From Eledone cirrhosa (taxonomy: Eukaryota): DNA of 64,000 nt. A model generated the notes under the pieces. It ran no database searches. It was not told the DNA's origin and worked only from the letters and a program-made list of their open reading frames with translations. Made by a program: the position numbers and the translations under genes. Positions 21,001 through 61,155 of the stretch are shown here, piece by piece (the stretch's first letter is position 1; the number at the start of each line of letters is the position of its first letter). The stretch covers positions 24,986,001 to 25,050,000 of the forward strand of contig OZ024764.1 of assembly GCA_964016885.1 (NCBI GenBank), read 5' to 3'.

Positions 21001-24000
21001 CACCACTGGTACACTTACTACACTGTTATATAGACATATATATCACCACTGTGGTACACTTACTACACTGTTATATAGACATATATATCACCACTGTGGT
21101 ACACTTACTACACTGTTATATAGACATGTCTATCACCACTGTGGTACACTTATTACACTGTTATATAGTCATATCTATCACCACTGTGGTACACTTACTA
21201 CACTGTTATATAGACATGTCTATCACCACTGTGGTACACTTGCTACAATGTTATATAGACATATCTATCACCACTGTTGTACACTTACTACACTGTTATA
21301 TAGACACATCTATCACCACTGTGGTACACTTACTACACTGTTATATAGTCATATCTATCACCACTGTGGTACACTTACTACACTGTTATATAGACATGTC
21401 TATCACCACTGTGGTACACTTGCTACAATGTTATATAGACATATCTATCACCACTGTGGTACACTTACTACACTGTTATATAGTCATATCTATCACCACT
21501 GTGGTACACTTACTACACTGTTATATAGACATGTCTATCACCACTGTGGTACACTTACTACACTGTAATATAGACATATCTATCACTGCTGTGGTACACT
21601 TACTACACTCGTCTCTAGACATATATATCACCACTGGTACACTTACTACACTGTTATATAGACACATCTATCACCACTGTGGTACACTTACTACACTGTT
21701 ATATAGACATGTCTATCACCACTGTGGTACACTTACTACGCTGTTATATAGACATGTCTATCACCACTGTGGTACACTTGCTACAATGTTATATAGACAT
21801 ATCTATCACAACTGTTGTACACTTACTACACTGTTATATAGACATGTCTAGCACCACTGTGGTACACTTACTACACTGTTATATAGACATGTCTATCACG
21901 ACTGTGGTACACTTGCCACACTGTTATATAGACATATCTATCACCACTGTGGTACACTTACTACACTGTTATATAGACATGTCTATCACCACTGTGGTAC
22001 ACTTGCTACACTGTTATATAGACATATCTATCCCCACTGTTGTACACTTACTACACTGTTATATAGAAATATCTATCACCACTGTGGTACACTTACTACA
22101 CTGTTATATAGTCATATCTATCACCACTGTGGTACTCTTACTACACTGTTATATAGAAATATCTATCACCCCTGTGGTACACTTACCACACTGTTATATA
22201 GTCATATCTATCACCACTGTGGTACTCTTACTACACTGTTATCTAGACGTATATATCACCACTGTGGTACACTTACTACACTGTTATATAGACATGGCTA
22301 TCATCACTGTGGTACACTTGCTACACTGTTATCTAGACATGTCTATCACCACTGTGGTACACTTACTACACTTACTACACTTTTATATAGATATCACCAA
22401 TCTGGTCCACTTACTACACTGTTATATAGACATGTCTATCACCACTGTGGTACACTTGCTACAGTGTTATATAGACATATCTATCACCACTGTGGTACAC
22501 TTACTACACTGTTATATAGACATATCTATTACCACTGTGGTACACTTACTACACTCTTACATAGACATATCTATCACCACTGTGGTAGATTTACTACACT
22601 GTTATAAAGACATGTCCATCACCACCGTGGTACACTTACTACACTGATATATAGACATATCTGTCACCACTGTTGTGCATTTACTACACTGTTATATAGT
22701 CATATCTTTTACCACTGTGGTACACTTACTACACTGTTATATAGACATGTCTATCACCACTGTGGTACACTTAATACACTGTTATATAGACATATCTTTC
22801 ACCACTGTGGTACACATACCACACTGTTATATAGTCATATCTATCACCATTGTGGTAAACTTACTACACTGTTATATAGATATATCTCTCACCACTGTGG
22901 TACATTTACTACACTGTTATATAGACATGTCTAACCCCACTGTGGTACATTTACTACACTGTAATATAGACATATCTATCACTTCTGTGGTACAATTACT
23001 ACACTGTTATATAGACATCTATCACCACTGTGGTACACTTACTGCACTGTTATATAGAAATATCTATCACCACTGTGGTACACTTACTACACTGTTATAT
23101 AGACATATCTATCACCACTCTGGTACACTTACCACACTGTTATATAGTCATATCTATCACCACTGTGGTACACTTACTACACTGTTATATAGACATATCT
23201 ATCACCATTGTGGTACACTTACTACACTGTTATATAGACATGTCTATCACCACTGTGGTACACTTACTACACTGTTATCTAGACATGTCTGTCACCACTG
23301 TGGTACACTTACTACACTTTTATATAGATATCACCACTCTGGTACACTTACTACACTGTTATATAGATATCAACACTCTGGTACACTTACTCCACTGTAA
23401 TATGGACATATCTGTCACCACTGTGGTACACTTACTACACTGTTATATAGATATATCTATCACCACTGTGGTACACTTACTACACTGTTATATAGACATA
23501 TCTATCACCATTGTGGTACACTTACTACACTGTTATACAGACATGTCTATCACCACTGTGGTACACTTACTACACTGTAATATAGAGATATCTATCACTG
23601 CTGTGGTACACTTACTACACTGTTATCTAGACATATATATCACCACTGGTACACTTACTACACTGTTATATAGACATATATATCACAACCGTGGTACACT
23701 TAATACACTGCTATATAGGCATGTCTATCAACACTGTGGTACACTTGCTACACTGTTATCTAGACATGTCTATCACTGCTTTTGTACACTTACTACACTT
23801 TTATATAGATATCACCACTCTGGTACACTTACTATACTTTTATATAGACGTGTCTATCACCACTGTGGTACACTTACTACATTGTTATATAGTCATATCT
23901 ATTACCACTGTGGTACACTTACTACACTGTTATATAGACATATCTATTACCACTGTGGTACACTTACTACACTGTTATATAGACATATCTATCACCACTG

Positions 24001-27000
24001 TGGTACACTTACTACACAGTTATATAGAAATATCTATCACCACTGTGGTACACTTACTACACTGTTATCTAGACATGTCTGTCACCACTGTGGTACACTT
24101 ACTACACTTTTATATAGATATCACCACTCTGGTACACTTACTACACTGTTATATAGATATCAACACTCTGGTACACTTACTCCACTGTAATATGGACATA
24201 TCTGTCACCACTGTGGTACACTTACTACACTGTTATATAGATATCACCACTCTGGTACACTTATTACACTGTTTTATAGACATCTATCACCACTGTGGTA
24301 CACTTACTACACTGTTATATAGACATATATATCACCACTGTGGTACACTTACTACACTGTTATATAGATATATCTATCACCACTGTGGTACACAAACTAC
24401 ACTGTTATATAGACATATCTATTACCACTGTGGTACACTTACTACACTGTTATATAGATATATCTATCACCACTGTGGTATACTTACTACACTGTTATAC
24501 TGACATATCTATCACCACTGTGGTACAATTACTGCCCTGTTATCTAGACATGTCTATCACCACTGGTACACTTACTACACTGTTATATAGACATATATAT
24601 CACCACTGTGGTACACTTACTACACTGTTATATAGACATATATATCACCACTGTGGTACACTTACTACACTGTTATATAGACATGTCTATCACCACTGTG
24701 GTACACTTATTACACTGTTATATAGTCATATCTATCACCACTGTGGTACACTTACTACACTGTTATATAGACATGTCTATCACCACTGTGGTACACTTGC
24801 TACAATGTTATATAGACATATCTATCACCACTGTTGTACACTTACTACACTGTTATATAGACACATCTATCACCACTGTGGTACACTTACTACACTGTTA
24901 TATAGTCATATCTATCACCACTGTGGTACACTTACTACACTGTTATATAGACATGTCTATCACCACTGTGGTACACTTGCTACAATGTTATATAGACATA
25001 TCTATCACCACTGTGGTACACTTACTACACTGTTATATAGTCATATCTATCACCACTGTGGTACACTTACTACACTGTTATATAGACATGTCTATCACCA
25101 CTGTGGTACACTTACTACACTGTAATATAGACATATCTATCACTGCTGTGGTACACTTACTACACTCGTCTCTAGACATATATATCACCACTGGTACACT
25201 TACTACACTGTTATATAGACACATCTATCACCACTGTGGTACACTTACTACACTGTTATATAGACATGTCTATCACCACTGTGGTACACTTACTACGCTG
25301 TTATATAGACATGTCTATCACCACTGTGGTACACTTGCTACAATGTTATATAGACATGTCTATCACCACTGTGGTACACTTGCTACAATGTTATATAGAC
25401 ATATCTATCACAACTGTTGTACACTTACTACACTGTTATATAGACATGTCTAGCACCACTGTGGTACACTTACTACACTGTTATATAGACATGTCTATCA
25501 CGACTGTGGTACACTTGCCACACTGTTATATAGACATATCTATCACCACTGTGGTACACTTACTACACTGTTATATAGACATGTCTATCACCACTGTGGT
25601 ACACTTGCTACACTGTTATATAGACATATCTATCCCCACTGTTGTACACTTACTACACTGTTATATAGTCATATCTATCACCACTGTGGTACACTTACTA
25701 CACTGTTATATAGTCATATCTATCACCACTGTGGTACTCTTACTACACTGTTATATAGAAATATCTATCACCCCTGTGGTACACTTACCACACTGTTATA
25801 TAGTCATATCTATCACCACTGTGGTACTCTTACTACACTGTTATCTAGACGTATATATCACCACTGTGGTACACTTACTACACTGTTATATAGACATGGC
25901 TATCATCACTGTGGTACACTTGCTACACTGTTATCTAGACATGTCTATCACCACTGTGGTACACTTACTACACTTACTACACTTTTATATAGATATCACC
26001 AATCTGGTCCACTTACTACACTGTTATATAGACATGTCTATCACCACTGTGGTACACTTGCTACAGTGTTATATAGACATATCTATCACCACTGTGGTAC
26101 ACTTACTACACTGTTATATAGACATATCTATTACCACTGTGGTACACTTACTACACTCTTACATAGACATATCTATCACCACTGTGGTAGATTTACTACA
26201 CTGTTATAAAGACATGTCCATCACCACCGTGGTACACTTACTACACTGATATATAGACATATCTGTCACCACTGTTGTGCATTTACTACACTGTTATATA
26301 GTCATATCTTTTACCACTGTGGTACACTTACTACACTGTTATATAGACATGTCTATCACCACTGTGGTACACTTAATACACTGTTATATAGACATATCTT
26401 TCACCACTGTGGTACACATACCACACTGTTATATAGTCATATCTATCACCATTTTGGTAAACTTACTACACTGTTATATAGATATATCTCTCACCACTGT
26501 GGTACATTTACTACACTGTTATATAGACATGTCTAACCCCACTGTGGTACATTTACTACACTGTAATATAGACATATCTATCACTTCTGTGGTACACTTA
26601 CTACACTGTTATATAGACATCTATCACCACTGTGGTACACTTACTACACTGTTATATAGAAATATCTATCACCACTGTGGTACACTTACTACACTGTTAT
26701 ATAGACATGGCTATCATCACTGTGGTACATTTACTACACAGTTATCTAGACATATATATCACCACTGGTACACTTACTACACTGTTATATAGACATATAT
26801 ATCACAACTGTGGTACACTTAATACACTGCTATATAGACATGTCTATCACCACTGTGGTACACTTGCTACACTGATATCTAGACATGTCTATCACTGCTG
26901 TTGTACACTTACTACACTTTTATATAGATATCACCACTCTGGTACACTTACTACACTGTTATATAGACATCTATGACCACTGTGGTACACTTACTACATT

Positions 27001-30000
27001 GGTACATAGACATATCTATCACCACTGTGGTACACTTACTACACTGTTATATAGACATCTATCACCACTGTGGTAAACTTACTACACTGTTATATAGACA
27101 TCTATCACCACTGTGTTAAACTTACTACACTGTTATATAGACATGTCTATCACCACTGTGGTACACTTACTACACTGTTATATAGTCACATCTATTACCA
27201 CTGTGGTACCCTTACTACACTGTTACATAGATATATCTATCACCCCTGTGGTACACTTACTATAGTTATATAGACATATCTATTACCACTGTGGTACACT
27301 TACTTCACTGTTATATAGACATATCTATCACCACTGTGGTACACTTACCACACTGTTATATAGAGATATATATTACCACTGTGGTACACTTACTACACTG
27401 TTATATAGACATATCTATCACCACTGTGGTACACTTACTACACAGTTATATAGAAATATCTATCACCACTGTGGTACACTTACTAAACTGTTATCTAGAC
27501 ATGTCTGTCACCACTGTGGTACACTTACTACACTTTTATATAGATATCACCACTCTGGTACACTTACTACACTGTTATATAGACATATATATCACCACTG
27601 TGGTACACTTAATACACTGTTATATAGACATATATATCACCAATGTGGTACACTTACTACACTGTTATATAGACATGTCTATCACCACTGTGGTACACTT
27701 ACTACACTGTTATATAGTCATATCTATCACCACTGTGGTACACTTACTACACTGTTATATAGTCATATCTTTTACCACTGAGGTACAATTACTACACTGT
27801 TATATAGACAAGTCTATCACCACTGTGGTACACTTACTACACTGTTATATAGACATATCTATCACCACTGTGGTACACTTACTACACTGTTATATAGATA
27901 TATCTATCACCACTGTGGTACACTTACTACACTGTTATATAGACATATATATCACCACTGTGGTACACTTAATACACTGTTATATAGACATATATATCAC
28001 CAATGTGGTACACTTACTACACTGTTATATAGACATGTCTATCACCACTGTGGTACACTTACTACACTGTTATATAGTCATATCTTTTACCACTGAGGTA
28101 CAATTACTACACTGTTATATAGACATGTCTATCACCACTGTGGTACACTTACTACACTGTTATATAGACATATCTATCACCACTGTGGTACACTTACTAC
28201 ACTGTTATATAGATATATCTATCACCACTGTGGTACACTTACTACACTGTTATATAGACATATCTATCACCACTCTGGTACACTTACCACACTGTTATAT
28301 AGTCATATCTATCACCACTGTGGTACACTTACTACACTGTTATATAGACATATCTATCACCATTGTGGTACACTTACTACACTGTTATATAGACATGTCT
28401 ATCACCACTGTGGTACACTTACTACACTGTAATATAGACATATCTATCACTGCTGTGGTACACTTACTACACTGTTATCTAGACATATATATCACCACTG
28501 GTACACTTACTACACTGTTATATAGACATATATATCACAACTGTGGTACACTTAATACACTGCTATATAGGCATGTCTATCAACACTGTGGTACACTTGC
28601 TACACTGTTATCTAGACATGTCTATCACTGCTTTTGTACACTTACTACACTTTTATATAGATATCACCACTCTGGTACACTTACTATACTGTTATATAGA
28701 CGTGTCTATCACCACTGTGGTACACTTACTACATTGTCATATAGTCATATCTATTACCACTGTGGTACACTTACTACACTGTTATATAGACATATCTATT
28801 ACCACTGTGGTACACTTACTACACTGTTATATAGACATATCTATCACCACTGTGGTACACTTACTACACAGTTATATAGAAATATCTATCACCACTGTGG
28901 TACACTTACTACACTGTTATCTAGACATGTCTGTCACCACTGTGGTACACTTACTACACTGTTATATAGATATCAACACTCTGGTACACTTACTCCACTG
29001 TAATATGGACATATCTGTCACCACTGTGGTACACTTACTACACTGTTATATAGATATCACCACTCTGGTACACTTATTACACTGTTTTATAGATATCTAT
29101 CACCACTGTGGTACACTTACTACACTGTTATATAGACATATATATCACCACTGTGGTACACTTACTACACTGTTATATAGATATATCTATCACCACTGTG
29201 GTACACATACTACACTGTTATATAGACATATCTATTACCACTGTGGTACACTTACTACACTGTTATATAGATATATCTATCACCACTGTGGTATACTTAC
29301 TACACTGTTATACTGACATATCTATCACCACTGTGGTACAATTACTGCCCTGTTATCTAGACATGTCTATCACCACTGGTACACTTACTACACTGTTATA
29401 TAGACATATATATCACCACTGTGGTACACTTACTACACTGCTATATAGACATATATATCACCACTGTGGTACACTTACTACACTGTTATATAGACATGTC
29501 TATCACCACTGTGGTACACTTATTACACTGTTATATAGTCATATCTATCACCACTGTGGTACACTTACTACACTGTTATATAGACATGTCTATCACCACT
29601 GTGGTACTCTTGCTACAATGTTATATAGACATATCTATCACCACTGTTGTACACTTACTACACTGTTATATAGACACATATATCACCACTGTGGTACACT
29701 TACTACACTGTTATATAGTCATATCTATCACCACTGTGGTACACTTACTACACTGTTATATAGACATGTCTATCACCACTGTGGTACACTTGCTACAATG
29801 TTATATAGACATATCTATCACCACTGTGGTACACTTACTACACTGTTATATAGTCATATCTATCACCACTGTGGTACACTTACTACACTGTTATATAGAC
29901 ATGTCTATCACCACTGTGGTACACTTACTACACTGTAATATAGACATATCTATCACTGCTGTGGTACACTTACTACACTCGTCTCTAGACATATATATCA

Positions 30001-33000
30001 CCACTGGTACACTTACTACACTGTTATATAGACACATCTATCACCACTGTGGTACACTTACTACACTGTTATATAGACATGTCTATCACCACTGTGGTAC
30101 ACTTACTACGCTGTTATATAGACATGTCTATCACCACTGTGGTACACTTGCTACAATGTTATATAGACATATCTATCACAACTGTTGTACACTTACTACA
30201 CTGTTATATAGACATGTCTAGCACCACTGTGGTACACTTACTACACTGTTATATAGACATGTCTATCACGACTGTGGTACACTTGCCACAGTTATATAGA
30301 CATATCTATCACCACTGTGGTACACTTACTACACTGTTATATAGACATGTCTATCACCACTGTGGTACACTTGCTACACTGTTATATAGACATATCTATC
30401 CCCACTGTTGTACACTTACTACACTGTTATATAGAAATATCTATCACCACTGTGGTACACTTACTACACTGTTATATAGTCATATCTATCACCACTGTGG
30501 TACTCTTACTACACTGTTATATAGAAATATCTATCACCCCTGTGGTACACTTACCACACTGTTATATAGTCATATCTATCACCACTGTGGTACTCTTACT
30601 ACACTGTTATCTAGACGTATATATCACCACTGTGGTACACTTACTACACTGTTATATAGACATGGCTATCATCACTGTGGTACACTTGCTACACTGTTAT
30701 CTAGACATGTCTATCACCACTGTGGTACACTTACTACACTTACTACACTTTTATATAGATATCACCAATCTGGTCCACTTACTACACTGTTATATAGACA
30801 TGTCTATCACCACTGTGGTACACTTGCTACAGTGTTATATAGACATATCTATCACCACTGTGGTACACTTACTACACTGTTATATAGACATATCTATTAC
30901 CACTGTGGTACACTTACTACACTCTTACATAGACATATCTATCACCACTGTGGTAGATTTACTACACTGTTATAAAGACATGTCCATCACCACCGTGGTA
31001 CACTTACTACACTGATATATAGACATATCTGTCACCACTGTTGTGCATTTACTACACTGTTATATAGTCATATCTTTTACCACTGTGGTACACTTACTAC
31101 ACTGTTATATAGACATGTCTATCACCACTGTGGTACACTTAATACACTGTTATATAGACATATCTTTCACCACTGTGGTACACATACCACACTGTTATAT
31201 AGTCATATCTATCACCATTGTGGTAAACTTACTACACTGTTATATAGATATATCTCTCACCACTGTGGTACATTTACTACACTGTTATATAGACATGTCT
31301 AACCCCACTGTGGTACATTTACTACACTGTAATATAGACATATCTATCACTTCTGTGGTACAATTACTACACTGTTATATAGACATCTATCACCACTGTG
31401 GTACACTTACTGCACTGTTATATAGAAATATCTATCACCACTGTGGTACACTTACTACACTGTTATATAGACATATCTATCACCACTCTGGTACACTTAC
31501 CACACTGTTATATAGTCATATCTATCACCACTGTGGTACACTTACTACACTGTTATATAGACATATCTATCACCATTGTGGTACACTTACTACACTGTTA
31601 TATAGACATGTCTATCACCACTGTGGTACACTTACTACACTGTTATCTAGACATGTCTGTCACCACTGTGGTACACTTACTACACTTTTATATAGATATC
31701 ACCACTCTGGTACACTTACTACACTGTTATATAGATATCAACACTCTGGTACACTTACTCCACTGTAATATGGACATATCTGTCACCACTGTGGTACACT
31801 TACTACACTGTTATATAGATATATCTATCACCACTGTGGTACACTTACTACACTGTTATATAGACATATCTATCACCACTCTGGTACACTTACCACACTG
31901 TTATATAGTCATATCTATCACCACTGTGGTACACTTACTACACTGTTATATAGACATATCTATCACCATTGTGGTACACTTACTACACTGTTATATAGAC
32001 ATGTCTATCACCACTGTGGTACACTTACTACACTGTAATATAGACATATCTATCACTGCTGTGGTACACTTACTACACTGTTATCTAGACATATATATCA
32101 CCACTGTTACACTTACTACACTGTTATATAGACATATATATCACAACTGTGGTACACATAATACACTGCTATATAGGCATGTCTATCAACACTGTGGTAC
32201 ACTTGCTACACTGTTATCTAGACATGTCTATCACTGCTTTTGTACACTTACTACACTTTTATATAGATATCACCAGTCTGGTACACTTACTATACTGTTA
32301 TATAGACGTGTCTATCACCACTGTGGTACACTTACTACATTGTTATATAGTCATATCTATTACCACTGTGGTACACTTACTACACTGTTATATAGACATA
32401 TCTATTACCACTGTGGTACACTTACTACACTGTTATATAGACATATCTATCACCACTGTGGTACACTTACTACACAGTTATATAGAAATATCTATCACCA
32501 CTGTGGTACACTTACTACACTGTTATCTAGACATGTCTGTCACCACTGTGGTACACTTACTACACTTTTATATAGATATCACCACTCTGGTACACTTACT
32601 ACACTGTTATATAGATATCAACACTCTGGTACACTTACTCCACTGTAATATGGACATATCTGTCACCACTGTGGTACACTTACTACACTGTTATATAGAT
32701 ATCACCACTCTGGTACACTTATTACACTGTTTTATAGACATCTATCACCACTGTGGTACACTTACTACACTGTTATATAGACATATATATCACCACTGTG
32801 GTACACTTACTACACTGTTATATAGATATATCTATCACCACTGTGGTACACATACTACACTGTTATATAGACATATCTATTACCACTGTGGTACACTTAC
32901 TACACTGTTATATAGATATATCTATCACCACTGTGGTATACTTACTACACTGTTATACTGACATATCTATCACCACTGTGGTACAATTACTGCCCTGTTA

Positions 33001-36000
33001 TCTAGACATGTCTATCACCACTGGTACACTTACTACACTGTTATATAGACATATATATCACCACTGTGGTACACTTACTACACTGTTATATAGACATATA
33101 TATCACCACTGTGGTACACTTACTACACTGTTATATAGACATGTCTATCACCACTGTGGTACACTTATTACACTGTTATATAGTCATATCTATCACCACT
33201 GTGGTACACTTACTACACTGTTATATAGACATGTCTATCACCACTGTGGTACACTTGCTACAATGTTATATAGACATATCTATCACCACTGTTGTACACT
33301 TACTACACTGTTATATAGACACATCTATCACCACTGTGGTACACTTACTACACTGTTATATAGTCATATCTATCACCACTGTGGTACACTTACTACACTG
33401 TTATATAGACATGTCTATCACCACTGTGGTACACTTGCTACAATGTTATATAGACATATCTATCACCACTGTGGTACACTTACTACACTGTTATATAGTC
33501 ATATCTATCACCACTGTGGTACACTTAATACACTGTTATATAGACATGTCTATCACCACTGTGGTACACTTACTACACTGTAATATAGACATATCTATCA
33601 CTGCTGTGGTACACTTACTACACTCGTCTCTAGACATATATATCACCACTGGTACACTTACTACACTGTTATATAGACACATCTATCACCACTGTGGTAC
33701 ACTTACTACACTGTTATATAGACATGTCTATCACCACTGTGGTACACTTACTACGCTGTTATATAGACATGTCTATCACCACTGTGGTACACTTGCTACA
33801 ATGTTATATAGACATATCTATCACAACTGTTGTACACTTACTACACTGTTATATAGACATGTCTAGCACCACTGTGGTACACTTACTACACTGTTATATA
33901 GACATGTCTATCACGACTGTGGTACACTTGCCACACTGTTATATAGACATATCTATCACCACTGTGGTACACTTACTACACTGTTATATAGACATGTCTA
34001 TCACCACTGTGGTACACTTGCTACACTGTTATATAGACATATCTATCCCCACTGTTGTACACTTACTACACTGTTATATAGAAATATCTATCACCACTGT
34101 GGTACACTTACTACACTGTTATATAGTTATATCTATCACCACTGTGGTACTCTTACTACACTGTTATATAGAAATATCTATCACCCCTGTGGTACACTTA
34201 CCACACTGTTATATAGTCATATCTATCACCACTGTGGTACTCTTACTACACTGTTATCTAGACGTATATATCACCACTGTGGTACACTTACTACACTGTT
34301 ATATAGACATGGCTATCATCACTGTGGTACACTTGCTACACTGTTATCTAGACATGTCTATCACCACTGTGGTACACTTACTACACTTACTACACTTTTA
34401 TATAGATATCACCAATCTGGTCCACTTACTACACTGTTATATAGACATGTCTATCACCACTGTGGTACACTTGCTACAGTGTTATATAGACATATCTATC
34501 ACCACTGTGGTACACTTACTACACTGTTATATAGACATATCTATTACCACTGTGGTACACTTACTACACTCTTACATAGACATATCTATCACCACTGTGG
34601 TAGATTTACTACACTGTTATAAAGACATGTCCATCACCACCGTGGTACACTTACTACACTGTTATATAGTCATATCTTTTACCACTGTGGTACACTTACT
34701 ACACTGTTATATAGACATGTCTATCACCACTGTGGTACACTTAATACACTGTTATATAGACATATCTTTCACCACTGTGGTACACATACCACACTGTTAT
34801 ATAGTCATATCTATCACCATTGTGGTAAACTTACTACACTGTTATATAGATATATCTCTCACCACTGTGGTACATTTACTACACTGTTATATAGACATGT
34901 CTAACCCCACTGTGGTACATTTACTACACTGTAATATAGACATATCTATCACTTCTGTGGTACACTTACTACACTGTTATATAGACATCTATCACCACTG
35001 TGGTACACTTACTACACTGTTATATAGAAATATCTATCACCACTGTGGTACAAGTACTACACTGTTATATAGACATGGCTATCATCACTGTGGTACATTT
35101 ACTACACAGTTATCTAGACATATATATCACCACTGGTACACTTACTACACTGTTATATAGACATATATATCACAACTGTGGTACACTTAATACACTGCTA
35201 TATAGACATGTCTATCACCACTGTGGTACACTTGCTACACTGATATCTAGACATGTCTATCACTGCTGTTGTACACTTACTACACTTTTATATAGATATC
35301 ACCACTCTGGTACACTTACTACACTGTTATATAGACATCTATGACCACTGTGGTACACTTACTACATTGGTACATAGACATATCTATCACCACTGTGGTA
35401 CACTTACTACACTGTTATATAGACATCTATCACCACTGTGGTAAACTTACTACACTGTTATATAGACATCTATCACCACTGTGTTAAACTTACTACACTG
35501 TTATATAGACATGTCTATCACCACTGTGGTACACTTACTACACTGTTATATAGTCACATCTATTACCACTGTGGTACCCTTACTACACTGTTATATAGAT
35601 ATATCTATCACCCCTGTGGTACACTTACTATAGTTATATAGACATATCTATTACCACTGTGGTACACTTACTTCACTGTTATATAGACATATCTATCACC
35701 ACTGTGGTACACTTACTACACTGTTATATAGAGATATATATTACCACTGTGGTACACTTACTACACTGTTATATAGACATATCTATCAGCGCTGTGGTAC
35801 ACTTACTACACTGTTATATAGACATGTCTATCACCACTGTGGTAGACTTACTACACTGTTATATAGAGATATATATTACCACTGTGGTACACTTACTACA
35901 CTGTTATATAGTCACATCTATTACCACTGTGGTACCCTTACTACACTGTTATATAGATATATCTATCACCCCTGTGGTACACTTACTATAGTTATATAGA

Positions 36001-39000
36001 CATATCTATTACCACTGTGGTACACTTACTACACTATTATATAGACATATCTATCACCACTGTGGTACACTTACTACACTGTAATATAGATATATCTATC
36101 ACCACTGTGGTACACTTACTACACTGTTATATAGAAATATCTATCACCACTGTGGTACACTTACTACACTGTTATATAGACATGGCTATCCTCACTGTGG
36201 TACACTTGCTACACTGTTATCTAGACATGTCTATCACCACTGTGGTACACTTACTACACTTTTATATAGATATCACTACTCTGGTACACTTACTACACTG
36301 TTATATAGACATCTATCACCACTGTTGTACACTTACTACACTGTTATATAGACACATCTATCACCACTGTGGTACACTGTTATATAGACATGTCTATCAC
36401 CACTGTGGTACACTTGCTACACTGTTATATAGACATATCTATAACCACTGTTGTACACTTACTACACTGTTATATAGAAATATCTATCACCACTGTGGTA
36501 CACTTGCTACACTGCTATATAGAAATATCTATCACCACTGTGGTACACTTACTACACTGTTATATAGACAGGGCTATCATCACTGTGGTACACTTGCTAC
36601 ACTGTTATCTAGACATGTCTATCACAACTGTGGTACACTTACTACACTTTATATAGATATCACTACTCTGGTACACTTACTACACTGTTATATAGACATC
36701 TATCACCACTGTTGTACACTTACTACACTTATATAGATATATCTATCACCCCTGTGGTACACTTACCACACTGTTATATAGACATATCTATCACCACTCT
36801 GGTACACTTACTACACTGTTATATAGACATCTATCACCACTGTGGTACACTTACCACACTGTTATATAGATATATCTATCACCACTGTGGTACACTTACT
36901 ACACTGTTATATAGACATATCTATCACCACTGTGGTACACTTACTACACTGTTATATAGACATATCTATCAGCACTGTGGTACACTTACTACACTGTTAT
37001 ATAGACATATCTATTACCACTGTGGTACACTTACTACACTCTTACATAGACATATCTATCACCACTGTGGTAGATTTACTACACTGTTATAAAGACATGT
37101 CCATCACCACCGTGGTACACTTACTACACTGATATATAGACATATCTGTCACCACTGTTGTGCATTTACTACACTGTTATATAGTCATATCTTTTACCAC
37201 TGTGGTACACTTACTACACTGTTATATAGACATGTCTATCACCACTGTGGTACACTTAATACACTGTTATATAGACATATCTATCACCACTGTGGTACAC
37301 ATACCGCACTGTTATATAGTCATATCTATCACCATTGTGGTAAACTTACTACACTGTTATATAGATATATCTCTCACCACTGTGGTACATTTACTACACT
37401 GTTATATAGACATGTCTAACCCCACTGTGGTACATTTACTACACTATAATATAGACATATCTATCACTTCTGTGGTACACTTACTACACTGTTATATAGA
37501 CATCTATCACCACTGTGGTACACTTACTACACTGTTATATAGAAATATCTATCACCACTGTGGTACACTTACTACACTGTTATATAGACATGGCTATCAT
37601 TACTGTGGTACATTTACTACACAGTTATCTAGACATATATATCACCACTGGTACACTTACTACACTGTTATATAGACATATATATCACAACTGTGGTACA
37701 CTTAATACACTGCTATATAGACATGTCTATCACCACTGTGGTACACTTGCTACACTGATATCTAGACATGTCTATCACTGCTGTTGTACACTTACTACAC
37801 TTTTATATAGATATCACCACTCTGGTACACTTACTACACTGTTATATAGACATCTATGACCACTGTGGTACACTTACTACATTGGTACATAGACATATCT
37901 ATCACCACTGTGGTACACTTACTACACTGTTATATAGACATCTATCACCACGGTGGTAAACTTACTACACTGTTATATAGACATCTATCACCACTGTGTT
38001 AAACTTACTACACTGTTATATAGACATGTCTATCACCACTGTGGTACACTTACTACACTGTTATATAGTCACATCTATTACCACTGTGGTACCCTTACTA
38101 CACTGTTATATAGATATATCTATCACCCCTGTGGTACACTTACTATAGTTATATAGACATATCTATTACCACTGTGGTACACTTACTTCACTGTTATATA
38201 GACATATCTATCACCACTGTGGTACACTTACTACACTGTTATATAGAGATATATATTACCACTGTGGTACACTTACTACACTGTTATATAGACATATCTA
38301 TCAGCGCTGTGGTACACTTACTACACTGTTATATAGACATGTCTATCACCACTGTGGTAGACTTACTACACTGTTATATAGAGATATATATTACCACTGT
38401 GGTACACTTACTACACTGTTATATAGTCACATCTATTACCACTGTGGTACCCTTACTACACTGTTATATAGATATATCTATCACCCCTGTGGTACACTTA
38501 CTATAGTTATATAGACATATCTATTACCACTGTGGTACACTTACTACACTATTATATAGACATATCTATCACCACTGTGGTACACTTACTACACTGTAAT
38601 ATAGATATATCTATCACCACTGTGGTACACTTACTACACTGTTATATAGAAATATCTATCACCACTGTGGTACACTTACTACACTGTTATATAGACATGG
38701 CTATCATCACTGTGGTACACTTGCTACACTGTTATCTAGACATGTCTATCACCACTGTGGTACACTTACTACACTTTTATATAGATATCACTACTCTGGT
38801 ACACTTACTACACTGTTATATAGACATCTATCACCACTGTTGTACACTTACTACACTGTTATATAGACACATCTATCACCACTGTGGTACACTGTTATAT
38901 AGACATGTCTATCACCACTGTGGTACACTTGCTACACTGTTATATAGACATATCTATAACCACTGTTGTACACTTACTACACTGTTATATAGAAATATCT

Positions 39001-40150
39001 ATCACCACTGTGGTACACTTGCTACACTGCTATATAGAAATATCTATCACCACTGTGGTACACTTACTACACTGTTATATAGACAGGGCTATCATCACTG
39101 TGGTACACTTGCTACACTGTTATCTAGACATGTCTATCACAACTGTGGTACACTTACTACACTTTATATAGATATCACTACTCTGGTACACTTACTACAC
39201 TGTTATATAGACATCTATCACCACTGTTGTACACTTACTACACTGTTATATAGATATATCTATCACCCCTGTGGTACACTTACCACACTGTTATATAGAC
39301 ATATCTATCACCACTCTGGTACACTTACTACACTGTTATATAGACATCTATCACCACTGTGGTACACTTACCACACTGTTATATAGATATATCTATCACC
39401 ACTGTGGTACACTTACTACACTGTTATATAGACATATCTATCACCACTGTGGTACACTTACTACACTGTTATATAGACATATCTATCAGCACTGTGGTAC
39501 ACTTACTACACTGTTATCTAGACATGTCTATCACCAATGTGGTACACTTACTACATGGTTATATAGACATATCTATCACCACTGTGGTACACTTACTACA
39601 CTGTTATATAGACATGTCTATCACTACTGTGGTACACTTATTACACTGTTATATAGAAATATCTATCACCACTGTGGTACACTTACTACACTGTAATATA
39701 GACATATCTATCGCTGTTGTGGTACACTTACTACACTGTTATCTAGACATATATATCACCACTGTGGTACACTTACTACACTGTTATATAGACATGTCTA
39801 TCACCACTGTGGTACAATTGCTACACTGTTATCTAGAAATGTCTATCACTGCTGTTGTACACTTACTACACTTTTATATAGATATCACCACTCTGGTACA
39901 CTTACTACACTGTTATATAGACATATCTATTACCACTGTGGTACACTTACTACACTGTTATGTAGACATATCTATCACCACTGTGGTACACTTGCTACAC
40001 TGTTATATAGTCATATCTATCACCACTGTGGTACACTTACTACACTGTTATATAGTCATATCTATTACCACTGTGGTACACTTACTACACTGTTATATAG
40101 ACATGTCTATCACCACCGTGGTACACTTACTACACTGTTATATAGACATG
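1..40150. repeat. Large tandem satellite, ~45-bp monomer (consensus ctatcaccactgtggtacacttactacactgttatatagacatat / ...gacatgt), ~890 copies, open at the window start
   Basis: Continuous head-to-tail monomers in one orientation, read directly. Recurrent length variants: 43 bp (actggtac or gacatctatc), 39 bp (gatatcaccactctgg), 54 bp (9-bp duplication, e.g. ~12785) and 36 bp (~36372). Confidence 0.98.
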
Positions 40151-41308
40151 TAAAGTGGTCATGTAGGTGTCACAACAAACAACACCCAGTCCACACTGTA
40201 AAGTGGTCATGTAGGTGCCACAACAAAAAGTACCCAGTCCACACTGTAAAGTGGTCATGTAGGTTTCACAACAAAAAGTACCCAGTCCACACTGTAAAGT
40301 GGTCATGTAGGTGTCACAACAAAAAGTACCCAGTCCACACTGTAAAGCGGTCATGTAGGTGTCACAACAAAAAGTACCCAGTCCACACTGTAAAGTGGTC
40401 ATGTAGGTGTTATGACAAAAAGTACCCAGTCCACACTGTAAAGTGGTCATGTAGGTGTCATGACAAAAAGTACCCAGTCCACACTGTAAAGTGGTCATGT
40501 AGGTGCCATGACAAAAGGTACCCAGTCCACACTATAAAGTGGTCATGTATGTGTCACAACAAAAAGTACCCAGTCCACACTGTAAAGTGGTTGTGTAGGG
40601 GCCACAACAAAATGTACCCAGTCCACACTGTAAAGTGGTCATGTAGGTCTCATGACAAAAAGTACCCAATCCACACTGTAAAGTGGTCATGTAGGTGTCA
40701 CAACAAACACACCCAGTCCACACTGTAAAATGGTCATGTAGGTGTCACAACAAAAAGTACCCAGTCCACACTGTAAAGCTGATCATGTAGGGGCCACAAC
40801 AAAAAGTACCCAGTCCACACTGTAAAGTGGTCATGTAGGTGTCATGACAAAAAGTACCCAGACGGCACTGAAAAGTGGTCATGTAGGTGCCACAACAAAA
40901 AGTACCCAGTCCACACTGTATAGTTTTTGTGTAGGGCCCACAATAAAAAGTACCCAGTCCACACTGTAAAGTGGTCATGTAGGTGTCACAACAAAAAGTA
41001 CCCAGTCCACACTGTAAAGTAGTCATGTAGGTGTCACAACAAAAAGTACCCAGTCCACACTGTAACGTAGTCATGTAGGTGTCACAACAAAAAGTACCCA
41101 GTCCACACTGTAAAGTTATCATGTAGGTGTCACAACAAACAACACCCAGTACACACTGTAAAGTGATCATGTAGGTGTCATGACAAAAAGTACTCAGTCC
41201 ACACTGTAAAGTGGTCATGTAGGTGTCTCAACAAAAAGTACCCAGTCCACACTGTAAAGTGGTCATGTAGGTGTCACAACAAACAACACCCAGTCAACAC
41301 TGTAAAGT
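40147..41308 (+). repeat. 48-bp minisatellite (catgtaggtgtcacaacaaaaagtacccagtccacactgtaaagtggt), ~24 copies, derived from an RTE-LINE 3' UTR repeat
   Basis: Period 48 (ccacactgta at 40191 and 40239). The unit matches the LINE 3' UTR unit (reverse complement of ~50373-50420; also ~44827-44876) at 40/48 positions without gaps. Confidence 0.93.
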
Positions 41309-41392
41309 GTTTGTTGTTGGGGAGGGCATCAAGCTGTAGAAACCAAGTCAGAAATATTTATGCATAGCAAGACACGGTCCTGTGACCCAACA
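41309..41392 (+). mobile_element. Continuation of the RTE-type 3' UTR downstream of the 48-bp array
   Basis: gttgttggggagggcatcaagctgtagaaacc...gacacggtc aligns with gttggtgttaggaagggcatccaaccgtagaaaacc...gacacggtc at ~44923-44991. Confidence 0.8.
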
Positions 41393-41775
41393 TAGCACAA
41401 ATTGCTAAATCATTTCCTTTAGAATATGACAAAGTGAGGACTGTCGCTGTGTTGTACTGAAGAAGAGGGAGGAGAAACTCTCTGCTTCAAAGGAAGTGAC
41501 TCAGCAATTTGTTAGTTTTTCATAGGCCTCAGGTGTGGCTGGACATACCAAATTGAATTTCTCACTTGTAAAGGTAAAATATATTTTGATAAATATAATT
41601 TATCTAAAAATACTAACATATATTTGTTGATCATATATATATATGTTTGTATATATATATATATATAAATATATATATATATATTAGTTTAACAATAATA
41701 ATAATAACGAAGGCAAGTTATTTTACATATTCATTTCATTCAGAGGCTTGATCACATATATATATATGTATATAT

Positions 41776-41935
41776 ATATTCATTTCATTTCATTTTACGT
41801 CCACTTTTCCCTGCTTGCAAGGGTGGGACGGGAACTGATTCTGGCTTGATTTCTACAGCTGGATGCCCTACCCAACGCCGAACTCATTTACAGTGAGGGC
41901 TGCGTGTTTTTTTCCGTGGCACCTCCACGACCACT
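41776..41935 (-). mobile_element. RTE-related LINE/SINE 3' end with (CATTT)n tail
   Basis: ttacgtccacttttccctgcttgcaagggt and tttctacagctggatgccct...ccaacgcc resemble the LINE 3' end at 50195-50330. A shorter tail piece with (cat)n lies at ~43520-43572. Confidence 0.7.
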
Positions 41936-42312
41936 TTGCTGTGGAATGATAGGGACCCCAGCCCTATCATCTCATTTCTACAGCTGAGTAAACTGGAGCA
42001 ATGTGAAATAAAATGTCGTCTTCAGTCTGACACTACTTTGACTGATACACTTCCTTCCCTGTATATATCAGATACATGTATTTGTGTGTGTTTATACGCG
42101 TGCTTTCATACTTGTATGTGTATATATTTCAATCCTTAGTCCCTCAGTCTGTATGTACACTAACTCTATTATCTTACAATTCCTTTTTCAACATATATTA
42201 TATACGTATTTGTGGTCACACATACACTGATATGCTTGCCCTCATGTATGTACTTACGCACACATTTTTTCACTATACACATGCATTTGTACATACACAC
42301 ATATGTACATTT

Positions 42313-44445: not shown

Positions 44446-44504
44446 ATATTTTGATTATGAAAATATTCTTCATTTATTAACATTTTGAATAATATATGTA
44501 CCAG

Positions 44505-45083
44505 GGCGATCAAAATAGATGGAAGTTACGGAGTAGGTAGACCCAGAAAAACCTGGGACGATCTGATAAATTCCGACCTTACACACTTACACCTCTCTAA
44601 GACAATGTCATTGGACCGAGATCTTTGGCGCTACGCGGTAATACAGAAGACCCGTCTTGCCTAAGTACAAAGTGAAACCTACAGTCAGTAGGCACCTCTT
44701 AACCAAATATACACCCCGATCCACTACCCCTACCCTATCCTCCCACTCCCACTAACATCACCCTCTCTCTGTAAAGTTGGTAACACAACATCCAGTCCAA
44801 ATAAATGAGATAATGTGATCGAGATCGTGTAGGTGTCACGAGAAAAAAAACACACAGCCCACGCTGAAATGTGGCCGTGTAGGTTACACAGTAAAAAGTT
44901 CCCAGTCCACACTGGAAATGTCGTTGGTGTTAGGAAGGGCATCCAACCGTAGAAAACCTGCCGGATAGTCCTATACGAGAGAGACACGGTCACCAGACCA
45001 ACCTTGCCTCAAGTGGGACAACTCCCGTCTAACCCATGCTAGCGTGGAAGATGGACGTTAAACGAAGATGATGATGAGATGAT
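44505..45083 (+). mobile_element. RTE-type LINE, short 3' fragment (ORF C-terminus, 3' UTR, (GAT)n tail)
   Basis: Encodes IKIDGSYGVGRPRKTWDDLINSDL...QKTRLA* (stop 44662-64), nearly identical to the end of the 50701-51480 ORF; ends in aaacgaagatgatgatg. Confidence 0.92.
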
Positions 45084-49211: not shown

Positions 49212-50170
49212 ATATATATATATGTGCATGTGTGTGTGTTTGTATATATTTATATATATGTGTGCGTGTATATTGATTTATGTGTGTGTGTATGTATAAA
49301 TGTGTGTGTGACCGAGCAGGTAGGGGTGTGTGTGTGTGTGTGTGTATGTGTATATACGTAAGTGTATAAGTATATATGATTCTTTCTTTTCCTCTCTTAG
49401 ACTTAAATAAATATATATATATAGTAATAATAATAAATGTGAAGACTAAAATCCAAAGAGGGCTCGATAAGGATAAATTTATATCAAATATATAAGAACC
49501 ATAGAGAAAATATTTATTAAAATAACAGATTAAAGTTTAAGCAAAGAATCGTTGCTTTCACCCTTAACGGGATCTTCTGGAAGTAAAAAAAATCAATCTG
49601 TGAACGCAGAAGTAAATATTTCGAAAAACGTTGCAACTGAAGGAAGACAGGAAGACGATATTTTGGTTCGTGAAGTCGTTCCCTGGCAATGAACGGAAAA
49701 AAGCGAAGACAATACGTCATTATTTGAAACGTGAGAACAATTATACGCAAAGACAAAACCACGTTTATAGTATAAATGGAGTCATTAGACTAATATTCTA
49801 TTTAAGAAACCGAATGATTCTCGGCTTCGGAGTTAAGAGTAATGTAAATAAATTAGTTGAACGACAGAGGTTATTAAAGATATAAAAGTAATAATAATTA
49901 AATATATATATATATATATATATACATCTATCATCATCATCGTCATCTATATACGTATATACATGTGTATACGCGAAAACACCCGCCATGCATGCATATA
50001 CATGTACGTACACATAAACACGCACACATACGCATATAAATACACACACATAAGTAGGTATATAACGCACGCACACACATACCTACAGCTAAATACACAT
50101 GTTCACCAAACATACGTATACCAAAACACAATGTAGACATATACACACCTTACATAAGTGCAAACACGCA

Positions 50171-51651
50171 TCATCATCATCATCATCATCATCGTTTAAC
50201 GTCCATCTTCCACGCTTGCATGGGTTTGGACGGGAGTTTCCCCACCTGAGGCAAGATTGGTTGTCCTGCTCGTATAGGACTGTCTGGCGGGTTTTCTACG
50301 GCTGGATGCCCTTCCTAACACCAACCACGTTTACAGTGTGGACTGTGAGGTTTTTACCGTGTTACCTACACGGCCACATTACAGCGTGGACTGTGTGTTT
50401 TTTGTCGTGACACCTACACGTCTGGCGGGTTTTCTACGGCTGGATGCCCTTCCCAACACCAACCACGTTTACAGTGTGTACTGGAAGGTTTTTACCGTGT
50501 TACCTACACGGCCACATTACAGCGTGGACTGTGTGTTTTTTTTTTGTCGTGACACCTACACGACCTCATTTATTTCGGACTGGATGTTGTGGTACCAACA
50601 TAACTTCACATTTAAGGGGGTGGTGTGAATGGGGTGGGGGTAGTGGGACGGGGGTGTATTTCGTTAGAGGTGCCTACTGACTGTAGGTTTCGCTTTTTAC
50701 TTAGACAAGGCGGGTCTTCTGTATAACTGTGTAGCGCCAAAGCTCTCGGTCCAGTGACATTGTCTTGAAGAGGTGTAAGTGTGTGAGGTCGGAATTTATC
50801 AAGTCGTCCCAGGTTTTTCTGGGTCTGCCTACTCCGTGGCTACCGTCTATTTTTATCGACCTGCACTTTTTTATGCAGCTGTCGTCTTTCATGCGATTCG
50901 TGTGACCGTACCAACGTAGTCTTCTCTCGAGTAAACAACATCTGATCCCTCTTATTTCTAATGTCTCCCTTAGTTCGTTTATGCTTTGCCGTTCACGTAT
51001 ATTACTATTACACATCCAGCGGAGCATGCAAGCTTCGTTCCTCTCTAGTCTGCGTATATCCTCTGCACACAATGCCCAGGTCTCACTGCCATGCAACATT
51101 GCTGTTCGTATGCAGGCATCATACAGCCTGCCTTTCATTTTTAGAGAGAACCCTTTAGCGACCAATAGTGGTATAAGCTCCCTGAACTTTTTCCATCCAG
51201 TTCTGACTCTAGCTACTGTACTTTCAGAGCAGCCTCCCCCACTGCTGATTTTGTCACCCAGGTAACGGAAGCTGTCCACTATTTCTATAGAACCATCTGT
51301 GCAATGGAATGAGTTAGTATTCTGTGGGCACTTGCTGCTACTTATTGCACCAGAGCACCGGCCACATATAAAATCTATATTCTTAGTTAGCTTACCTGTG
51401 ATCCCACTACATCTTTTATGTACCCATACTTTGCATTTGGGACATAAAAGGGAGTTTCTGCCTACTCTTTTCCTACACACTGAACATGGCCATTTCCCTG
51501 AGGGTACCTGTGCCTTATTTTACTTCCTTACAAACTAGAACTTTAGTCTTAGACAAGTTAACTTTAAGGCCTTTTGATTCTAGGCCATGCTTCCATGTTT
51601 GGAATTTCTTCTCTAGTTCAGCCATTGATTCAGCTATGAACGTTAGATCAT
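50171..51651 (-). mobile_element. 5'-truncated RTE-type LINE with (GAT)n tail; possible TSD cacgca (50165-70 / 51652-57)
   Basis: Begins at the RT catalytic DD (DDLTFIAESMAELEKKFQTWKHGLESKGLKVNLSKTKV). ORF remnant 50701-51480. The 3' UTR has a ~140-bp tandem duplication. (cat)n tail at 50171-50193. Confidence 0.93.
50701..51651 (-). pseudogene. C-terminal RTE reverse transcriptase remnant with a Cys/His-rich PHD-like insert
   Basis: CSVCRKRVGRNSLLCPKCKVWVHKRC...FICGRC, VDSFRYLGDKI, LHGSETW, RRLRWYGH, GRPRKTW; stop/frameshift near 51518. Confidence 0.9.
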
Positions 51652-52294
51652 CACGCAAAATACACATATACACATAACCATATACACATGTACCAGTATA
51701 TCTGTTAGAACACGAAAAGTGTGAAACAACAGAATGTTCACTTTTCGTGTTCTAACATATATGCCTAGCTTCTTTAAAAATTTTTCGGGGATAGCCGTGG
51801 TGGTGGTGATCGTATGTCATTGGCTAATTTTCAACCAATCAGAGTACCTCTCTCTATATCTCTTCCACTGTTACTTACGCCTGTTTCTCTCTATCTGTTC
51901 CGTCTCTATATATATCTCTTACTCTTTCGCTTTGCACTCCTCCCCTTCAATACCATCTCTCCCCCTCTCTATATATTTGTTACTCTATCGCTGCACGCTC
52001 CTCTCCTTCAATATATCAATTACACACGCTTTAAACTCCTTTATCCCCAGCGCCCCTATATATACACCCCCCTCTCCCGCATCTATATTTTAATGTACCG
52101 TTGCACCGTGAATATATGTGTCTATATATATATACATATATATTGTATATACACAATCATGTATGTGTATACACACTCATGTATGTATATACACTGGTTT
52201 TATGTGTGTATTGTAAATTTGTACTGTTAAAACACGAAACTAACATTCGATTGACACTTTGATTACCTGTACAGGCAATAGTTATTAGAATGCT

Positions 52295-55175: not shown

Positions 55176-55715
55176 CTATCTGTTAGGGTATAATGTGGGG
55201 CTGTAATACAGGAAGGTTTTATGCAATTTGTGTTTACGAGCCAAAATTGCCTCAGATTTTTTGTTGTGATCATTGGTGTAGAGTATTTCCAGGGCTTCAG
55301 CAGCGCAAAGATCACATGGTCTTTTATTTCCGTTATACGATCTAGCTTTAGCTAGGATCTCCCAGTGTAACCTATATTGGGTGTGGTTGTCTTTTAGACT
55401 CCAGATATAAGCTGAAAGTGACGTCATGTCCCTTCTTAAAGGGTTAAGAAAAGAATGGGTGTGCATGTGAAGACGCTGCTTGAATCTATTGGCGGTTAAC
55501 CCTATGTAGACCCTACTAGACGTGGGTGTTTTGACCTTACTTTTGTAGACAATGTTACTGGAGAGGCATTTCCCAGATAGAGGGCAGTCAACCCGATTAC
55601 TACAATTACAGTTAGTACTAGTTACAGGGTTGCCTGTGTTCCTACGGCTAGGTAATCTGGCTAAATTTGAAGCAGTAATGTAAGGAGTCGTAGAGCAAGA
55701 TATTTTAATGGTATT
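55176..55715 (-). pseudogene. Penelope-like element fragment, GIY-YIG endonuclease C-terminus, 5'-truncated at (TA)n
   Basis: The frame is open upstream of the listed ATG: NTIKISCSTTP...CNCSNRVDCPLSGKCLSSNIVYKS...VYIGLTANRFKQR...LSAYIWSLK...CDLCAAEALEI. Homologous to the 61737-62411 ORF. Confidence 0.9.
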
Positions 55716-56286: not shown

Positions 56287-56335
56287 TGAGATTCTACAGG
56301 ACTAGAACTGTTTCATTCTTTCCCTGAATAACGTA

Positions 56336-56396
<61 letters not shown>

Positions 56397-56627
56397 GTAT
56401 ATAATAGTAACAACCACAATGGTAGAAATAACAGTAACAACAACAACAATAACGGTGAAGTAAACAACAATACATCTAGCAATCATAACAATAATAATAA
56501 TGCTAATGATAGAAACAACAACAACCACCATGATAACAATAATAGCAACGCACACAACTATGACGATAGATATAATGACAACCCCTTAGAGAAACTATTT
56601 TTCAACCCAGCTGACAAAACATATAAG

Positions 56628-60274: not shown

Positions 60275-60983
60275 TACTTATATATATGATGGTTGCCACC
60301 TCGTTATCGAGTATGGTCATTTCACGATATAACATTATCAATAATGATTAATTAATTATATCGTGCGTGAAGATATTTTTTAAAGTGAGGCAAGACTGTG
60401 CACTGAGCCAATCCCACTCTCTGAGCAACAGTAGCTATAACCCGAAAAGAAGAAAAGATCAACATCATCGGTAACTACTGAGCCGCAGGTTTTATATCGG
60501 AGTTATCCCAGTTTCCTGAGTTGCCTTCTCCAAGAAGAATGCCCTGACAAAGGCTAGGGGTCCTTCAATCCCAGTGGTTTAACCGCGCGGTACATGTGTA
60601 TATACATATATACACACTTTGGGATGGCCGTTGACTCTTATGAGTTCTTCTGCCCTTTGTCAGGTTTTGTTTTTTGACCTGAATGGTGTCTAAAATCACC
60701 CTCCTCACCAAGTAAACTTGGTGGGGTTGCCGGTTTAGTCGCCAACAACCCTACCATGCGACAGGTCGTACTAGGTTACATGTTACCAGTAGCACTCAAG
60801 AGAGACCCGACATATATATATACATATAGTAATAATAATAAATTTGAAAACTAAAATCCAAAGAGGGCTCGATAAGGATAAATATAAATCAAATATATAA
60901 GAACCGTAGAGCAAATATTTATTAAAATAACAGATTTATTAAAAGCGATTCTTTGCTTAAACTTTAATCTGTTATTTTAATAA

Positions 60984-61102
<119 letters not shown>

Positions 61103-61118
61103 TACATACATAAATATA

Positions 61119-61153
<35 letters not shown>

Positions 61154-61155
<2 letters not shown>

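What the first reader, a model, noticed from the sequence alone, without database searches (positions are those of the whole stretch)
40147..41392. Minisatellite born in situ from a 48-bp repeat in an RTE LINE 3' UTR
Seen: the LINE 3' UTR (44827-44920; reverse complement of 50325-50420) holds two diverged 48-bp-type units. The first, cgtgtaggtgtcacgacaaaaaacacacagtccacgctgtaatgtggc, aligns without gaps to the array unit at 40/48. After ~24 copies the array continues into the next UTR segment (gggcatc...gtagaaacc...gacacggtc). Inference: a retroelement copy expanded its internal UTR repeat from 2 to ~24 units, with parent and product visible in one window.
Basis: partly seen in the sequence, partly recalled or inferred. 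Interest (0 to 1): 0.75.

Follow-up and report, generated by a model that had tools for sequence, protein, structure and literature searches.

The report
Satellite DNA from a retrotransposon tail
This 24-copy, 48-base repeat does come from the tail of a jumping-gene family, but it is one of many near-identical arrays in the genome, including a 700-kb block on the same chromosome, that likely swap copies by DNA repair, so it is an ordinary example of a known process rather than a repeat caught being born on the spot.

Summary
The array (40149-41309, 24.2 x 48 bp) and its 40/48 match to a LINE 3' UTR unit are real; 28 of 29 measurable LINE copies carry exactly two such units. "Born in situ, parent and product in one window" is not supported. 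The same unit gives 3,367 exact 65-mer matches genome-wide and fills a ~698-kb block on the same contig. Its nearest parent is another LINE subfamily (46/48), not the window's copies. Here the 5' UTR flank is absent: an unrelated 45-bp satellite joins at a 3-bp overlap. The tail is decayed and cut short. An old duplicate of this locus also has the array and shares a private variant, while another variant is shared with the big block. Elsewhere satellite-type arrays sit inside young LINE copies, inside a LINE ORF and in unrelated repeats, with microhomology and a strong bias to chromosome ends. Most likely reading: an RTE-tail-derived satellite family that spreads and homogenises by recombination and templated repair. 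Known kind (SINE-derived satellites; Rsp-like mobility). The scan reported a 48-base satellite of the same description on other DNA (e1-9585604).

The parts
1..40149 (+). 45-bp satellite, about 900 units in the window with kb-scale higher-order repeats; starts about 6.4 kb upstream of the window with its native 5' flank; its native 3' flank is missing here
   Evidence: TRF; unit split; paralogs with both native flanks; start in L046; higher-order periods
40149..40151 (+). 3-bp overlap (TGT) at which the 45-bp satellite joins the 48-bp array, out of register with the weak likeness of the two units
   Evidence: 45 vs 48 unit homology not significant, 239 of 1000 shuffles score as high; junction not confirmed by public contigs
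40149..41309 (+). 48-bp array, 24.2 units, consensus identical to the genome-wide satellite; mosaic of a locus-private variant and a variant shared with the C25 block
41311..41392 (+). decayed, 3'-truncated RTE-type tail of an older subfamily; no (GAT)n end
41393..41632 (+). low-copy flank shared with three old duplicates on the same contig that also carry tail and a 20-unit array
   Evidence: identity 85/120 and 84/92
41769..42017 (-). SINE-type element with the same tail and about one and a half units of its own type
44491..45075 (+). 5'-truncated LINE copy A: ORF end, UTR with two units (44826-44923), tail, (GAT)n; a cousin, not the parent
50168..51655 (-). 5'-truncated LINE copy B: ORF C-terminus with PHD finger (50701-51519), UTR with a 138-bp duplication holding the two units twice, (GAT)n; 5' boundary approximate

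Best explanation
The array is one member of a genome-wide 48-bp satellite family derived from the repeat unit in the 3' tail of an RTE-type LINE/SINE family, and it likely reached its present form by recombination-based copying between loci rather than by a lone expansion of a neighbouring LINE. Steps: (1, shown) the tails carry 1-5 units whose sequence differs by subfamily. (2, shown at other loci) single copies expand their own unit in place. (3, inferred) one lineage, from unit 1 of an intermediate subfamily and decayed at its two CpG sites, became a large satellite with a ~698-kb block on this contig. (4, inferred) its units are copied into other tail copies by homology and into unrelated DNA by microhomology-guided repair, mostly near chromosome ends. 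(5, inferred) at this locus an array already sat on an old tail before an old duplication and took up satellite-type units. (6, inferred) it then lost its 5' side in a 3-bp-overlap join to an unrelated 45-bp satellite. No function is indicated.
For: Homology 40/48 vs shuffled maximum 29. 3,367 exact 65-mer matches, 0 for the reversed control; the first 100 lie on 15 other contigs. Block C25:18.427-19.124 Mb is array wherever sampled; its left end cuts a Helitron ORF (Pfam E 1.7e-15) and its right end is a fold-back with no tail. Window consensus equals block consensus; mean window unit 45.3/48 to block, 42.3 to old-family unit, 38.6 to LINE B unit. Parent-like unit 46/48 in two-unit copies of another subfamily. 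25 tail-bearing arrays: tails 76.6% identical pairwise (63-90%) but array consensus 96.8%; the tails fall in the LINE clade, the SINE group and the old family. L088 has young LINE flanks (94%, 91% to LINE A), one LINE-type unit, then about 94 satellite-type units; L206 and L212 are similar. L089 has 40 units inside a LINE ORF replacing a 19-bp stretch with 2-bp overlaps; L064 has a 10-bp overlap plus a ~190-bp flank duplication; L090 has a 5-bp overlap. 27 of 28 array loci on C1-C23 lie within 17 Mb of a contig end (28% of length) and 4 of 28 on C1-C4 (61.5% of length), while 100 of 134 LINE ORF hits are on C1-C4. At this locus a two-base variant occurs only here (2/21) and in the old duplicate (9/13), 0 of 3,522 48-bp units elsewhere; a second variant is shared with the block (29/1,716) and absent from 1,052 units on other chromosomes.
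Against: Most arrays were found by an exact match to this consensus, which inflates their likeness to each other; L002-L014 and L088-L096 came from a query holding the shared variant. The parent unit plus CpG decay gives the same consensus, so arrays on intermediate-subfamily tails (L002, L003, L211, L214) may be independent in-situ births. At this locus the duplicate is about 83% identical (237/286) and the units are 5.6% off consensus, so the units need not have been renewed after the duplication. The direction of exchange with the block is unknown. Overlap of 2 or more bases was seen at 8 of 18 junction rows; 10 had 0-1, several with poor empty-site matches. The 46/48 figure includes 20 positions fixed by the search pattern. 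The window's long branch in the tail tree is inflated by non-homologous flank. The 45/48 junction was not confirmed by reads.
Confidence: 0.7

Rival explanations
1. Independent in-situ birth: the old tail at this locus expanded its own unit, and CpG decay made it converge on the same consensus as other arrays; no exchange between loci.
For: In-situ expansions with both host flanks exist: L133 (full SINE, 54 units of its own 50-51-bp type), L134 (LINE, 16 units), L209. The old duplicate has the array and shares a private variant. Both deamination products of the ancestral CpG sites are seen in the units.
Against: The old family's native unit has C at the diagnostic site in 28 of 29 units and the duplicate's tail-proximal units are of another type, whereas 19 of 21 window units have the satellite's T. 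Zero consensus differences from a 698-kb block. A variant shared with the block but not with the duplicate. L088, L089 and L064 cannot arise this way. The 5' host flank is absent.
Confidence: 0.15
2. An SVA-like master element carrying a long internal VNTR plus tail was retrotransposed; this locus is a 5'-truncated copy inserted at the end of the 45-bp satellite.
For: 25 of 50 arrays pass the tail threshold at a fixed 3' phase, while 5' ends are scattered over 28 phases, as for 5' truncation.
Against: Tails are not one lineage: the label needs 21 changes vs 23.2 shuffled, and starred branches force at least 4. No non-microsatellite target-site duplication in 16 array+tail loci (weak test). Arrays are subtelomeric while LINE insertions are not. 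Here the tail and its 3' flank predate the join to the 45-bp satellite.
Confidence: 0.08
3. The adjacency of the 45-bp satellite and the 48-bp array is an assembly mis-join between two repeats; the array's true 5' flank is elsewhere.
For: No public contig was shown to span the junction. The native 3' flank of the 45-bp array and the 5' flank seen at the duplicates are both missing.
Against: The two units are not significantly alike, so an overlap-based mis-join is unlikely. Similar short-overlap joins occur at other loci. k-mer contigs break in repeats, so the blank is uninformative.
Confidence: 0.07

Closest known systems
SINE-derived satellites (sSats) of squamates, PMC10702118 (abstract, Background, Discussion read)
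   Same: Tandem units from part of a retroelement, a terminal unit that runs on into the element, homogeneity within and between long loci, one variant coming to dominate, subtelomeric bias.
   Different: Here the source is the LINE-derived 3' tail shared by LINE and SINE subfamilies, and one block reaches about 14,500 units against up to 1,000 per locus there. Insertion of arrays into young copies and unrelated DNA is not described in the sections read.
Rsp-like satellite spreading into 1.688 clusters in Drosophila simulans/mauritiana, PMC7403614 (passages read)
   Same: Arrays at new loci with short microhomologies, flank duplications or small deletions; joins between unrelated satellites; interlocus conversion, template switching or eccDNA proposed.
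   Different: There the landing pads are another satellite. Here they would be dispersed copies of the satellite's own parent retroelement. eccDNA not tested here.
Satellites from tandem repeats inside LTR retrotransposons in Lathyrus sativus, PMC7004042 (abstract only), and PisTR-A / HeT-A / L1 3' UTR cases reviewed in PMC9659126 (passages)
   Same: Short arrays inside a retroelement, often its 3' UTR, that occasionally expand into long satellite blocks at favoured chromosomal regions.
   Different: Non-LTR parent, animal genome, expansion biased to chromosome ends and small chromosomes rather than primary constrictions.
Octopus RTE-2_OV LINE, PMC9115989 (passages)
   Same: Single ORF of about 1,100 aa with endonuclease, RT and a zinc finger; microsatellite in the 3' UTR.
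   Different: Sequences not compared; the finger here is called PHD by Pfam; identity of the two families untested.

Membership tests
RTE-clade LINE (parent) | One long ORF with AP endonuclease and reverse transcriptase | tested here: met
   1,084-aa open frame in L148 with Exo_endo_phos, RVT_1 and PHD
RTE-clade LINE (parent) | 3' end in a short microsatellite | tested here: met
   (GAT)n ends in copies picked by ORF; PMC9115989 passage calls microsatellites common in RTE
RTE-clade LINE (parent) | RT groups with named RTE references in a tree | not tested
   Homolog search gave no named clade references; the label RTE rests on architecture and recall
Retroelement-derived satellite (sSat type) | Unit homologous to a segment of the element | tested here: met
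   40/48 vs shuffled maximum 29; 46/48 to another subfamily
Retroelement-derived satellite (sSat type) | Terminal unit continues into the element up to its end | tested here: inconclusive
   Continues for about 82 bp here but the end is lost; tail present at 25 of 50 arrays, many reaching (GAT)n
Retroelement-derived satellite (sSat type) | Homogeneity between long loci and subtelomeric bias | tested here: met
   Array consensus 96.8% pairwise, with ascertainment; 27 of 28 loci within 17 Mb of an end
Minisatellite born in situ in an intact host copy | Host sequence on both sides of the array | tested here: not met
   5' side is a 45-bp satellite; the duplicates' 5' flank is not LINE UTR by eye either
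Minisatellite born in situ in an intact host copy | Units closest to the proposed parent and confined to the locus | tested here: not met
   38.6/48 to LINE B vs 45.3/48 to the block; 3,367 exact matches
SVA-like VNTR retroelement | Array-bearing tails form one lineage | tested here: not met
SVA-like VNTR retroelement | Target-site duplications around array plus tail | tested here: inconclusive
   Only microsatellite matches in 16 loci; the LINE control mostly inserts in (TA)n, one clear case among 14
Mobile satellite of the Rsp-like kind | Insertion into unrelated sequence with microhomology and small deletion or duplication | tested here: met
   L089, L064, L090 and this junction; 8 of 18 junction rows with 2 or more bases
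Mobile satellite of the Rsp-like kind | Presence on extrachromosomal circles | not testable with these tools
   Needs circle-enriched sequencing

The most novel reading that the evidence does not exclude
A closed loop between a retrotransposon and its daughter satellite: the satellite born from the LINE's 3' UTR unit re-enters young and old copies of its own parent family, using roughly 100,000 dispersed tails as homologous landing pads, so that LINE insertions pre-seed where satellite arrays can appear near chromosome ends.
Probability: 0.45. Interest if true: 0.5.

Novelty: new member of a known kind. Interest (0 to 1): 0.3.

Why it matters
As it stands, it adds a large animal example to a known route from retroelement UTR to satellite DNA. 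The assembly holds every stage (2-unit parents, in-situ expansions, dispersed arrays, a 700-kb block). It also warns that a parent and an array in one window do not show birth in place. If the re-entry into parent copies holds up genome-wide, it would give a measurable case of how satellites reach new loci, a question still argued between interlocus conversion and eccDNA.

Tried and rejected
45-bp satellite derived from the 48-bp unit: looked plausible by eye, not significant (239 of 1000 shuffles as high); the 45-mer has its own non-LINE flanks at four paralogous loci, and the C1 hit is a different ~19-bp repeat. The GTAC site as a satellite-only marker: absent from the short tails, but native to unit 1 of an intermediate subfamily; dropped as proof of import for those tails. 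Unusual secondary structure as a cause of expansion: none (z 0.92 and 0.26 for the unit dimer). Target-site duplication test: inconclusive. Read support for the junction: contigs too short, no verdict. Expression: no RNA holder listed. tRNA scan of 40000-64000: 0 genes. Homolog search for a clade name: uninformative. Look-ups of earlier findings by sequence and near place: nothing relevant. One of 20 random regions did not exist (C16), leaving 19.

Full report
Observation. The array is real: 40149-41309, 24.2 units of 48 bp. Its consensus matches the first UTR unit of the LINE copy at 50373-50420 (-) at 40/48 without gaps; shuffled units reach at most 29. The LINE is a single-ORF element with endonuclease, RT and PHD domains. 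Of 31 copies picked by ORF, 29 were measurable and 28 have exactly two units. After the array comes a tail-like segment (41311-41392), only 69-73% identical to the two window LINEs and lacking the (GAT)n end. The RTE label and the guess that this is an octopus genome rest on architecture, recall and earlier scan notes; neither was tested.

What flanks it. The 5' side is not LINE. A 45-bp satellite fills 1-40149 and begins about 6.4 kb upstream of the window. Its paralogs at four other places on the contig have their own non-LINE flanks, and its native 3' flank is missing here. The two units are not significantly alike and join at a 3-bp overlap. Public contigs could not confirm or deny the join. 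The 3' flank has three old duplicates on the same contig, about 83% identical (237/286 for one of them), each with the same tail and a 20-unit array.

How common the unit is. A 65-mer of the consensus has 3,367 exact matches and 0 for the reversed control. On the window's contig a block runs from about 18.427 to 19.124 Mb (~698 kb, about 14,500 units if continuous) and was array in every internal sample. Its left end cuts a Helitron ORF and its right end is a fold-back with no tail. Of 50 arrays examined, 25 passed the tail threshold, 3 more have a damaged tail by eye, 2 are block interiors and about 20 end without a tail. Six of 44 with a closed 5' end have collinear LINE sequence upstream by BLAST, a lower bound because older UTRs diverge. 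Random DNA held 8 tail hits in 190 kb, roughly 100,000 genome-wide. Contigs of a second coded organism (B) also hold the 48-mer at high depth but not the 45-mer.

Who the parent is. Tail subfamilies differ in their units. An older family has 0-5 unit cores (30 copies), consensus 44/48 to the satellite. An intermediate subfamily has a unit 1 at 46/48 (10 copies; 20 positions fixed by the pattern). The satellite's differences at the two ancestral CpG sites are the expected deamination products. Window units average 45.3/48 to the block, 42.3 to the old family and 38.6 to the window LINE. So the window LINEs are cousins, not the parent.

How arrays arise and move. In-situ expansion does happen: L133 is a whole SINE with 54 units of its own type, L134 a LINE UTR with 16, L209 a 6-core case with a private mark. 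Satellite-type arrays also sit where local expansion cannot explain them. L088 has young LINE flanks, one LINE-type unit and about 94 satellite units; L206 and L212 are similar. L089 has 40 units inside a LINE ORF in place of a 19-bp stretch; L064 has a 10-bp overlap and a ~190-bp duplication; L090 has a 5-bp overlap. Overlap of 2 or more bases was found at 8 of 18 junction rows (1 in 16 expected per junction by arithmetic); 10 rows had 0-1. Among 25 tail-bearing arrays the tails are 76.6% identical and scattered across LINE, SINE and old-family groups, while array consensus sequences are 96.8% identical (inflated by how loci were chosen). On C1-C23, 27 of 28 array loci lie within 17 Mb of an end and 4 of 28 on the four giant contigs, whereas 100 of 134 LINE ORF hits are on those contigs (three C20 loci are neighbours). 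This points to recombination and repair, not retrotransposition.

This locus. A two-base variant occurs only here (2 of 21 full units) and in the old duplicate (9 of 13), in 0 of 3,522 48-bp units elsewhere, so an array predates the duplication. A second variant is here (2 of 21), in the block (29 of 1,716) and in other C25/C27/C1284 arrays, but not in the duplicate or in 1,052 units on other chromosomes, which suggests exchange; its direction is unknown. Against me: unit divergence (5.6%) is compatible with no renewal since the duplication, so a purely local history keeps about 15%.

Comparison. The pattern fits SINE-derived satellites of squamates (PMC10702118; abstract, Background and Discussion read), retrotransposon-derived satellites of Lathyrus (PMC7004042; abstract) and cases reviewed in PMC9659126 (passages). 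The junctions fit Rsp-like mobility in Drosophila (PMC7403614; passages). Seven searches listed no paper describing this 48-bp family; passages of an octopus repeat annotation (PMC13282606) did not mention it. Repeat libraries and supplements were not seen and may hold it. An earlier scan note (e1-9585604) reached the same origin for a 48-base block elsewhere in this genome.

Verdict. Observation partly confirmed, interpretation partly supported. New member of a known kind; interest 0.3. The one feature worth a follow-up is re-entry of the satellite into copies of its parent family (probability 0.45).

Noticed in passing
G000:C25:18,426,700-19,124,300 (L218, L219, L123-L132, L220-L223, L236): ~698-kb block of the same 48-bp unit; left end interrupts a Helitron ORF, right end is a fold-back inverted unit.
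   Followed up: partly
L089 (C27), array at 2948-4853 on the minus strand: 40 satellite units inserted inside a LINE ORF, replacing a 19-bp stretch, no tail, no duplication.
   Followed up: yes
L133:7051-9753 and L134:384-1105: True in-situ expansions: a complete SINE with 54 own-type units and a LINE UTR with 16 own-type units, both flanks intact.
   Followed up: partly
L052 and L055 (about 4.1-5.1 kb in L055): A separate 51-bp minisatellite built from the adjacent segment of an older tail.
   Followed up: no
window 1-40149: 45-bp satellite of about 46 kb with higher-order periods of 2.5-8.4 kb; paralogs hold only 7 to roughly 60 units.
   Followed up: partly
window 50282-50562: 138-bp tandem duplication in the UTR of LINE copy B spanning both units and the start of the tail; related 112-bp duplications in L143 and L133.
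   Followed up: no
L159 (C12): LINE whose 3' end is replaced by a SINE 3' part, switching inside unit 1: a LINE/SINE chimera.
   Followed up: no
L042-L044, about 1.2-1.55 kb in L044: In the old duplicates a ~45-bp piece of the 3' flank has itself become a tandem array of variable length; single in the window.
   Followed up: no
window 56328-58988 (+), 60968-62411 (+), 55176-55715 (-): Open frames that look like Penelope-type retroelement remains by eye (recalled); Pfam gave only a weak RT match for the first (E 0.00056) and nothing for the others.
   Followed up: partly
L047 and L054: A ~65-bp satellite upstream of the 45-bp array, shared between the paralogous segments.
   Followed up: no
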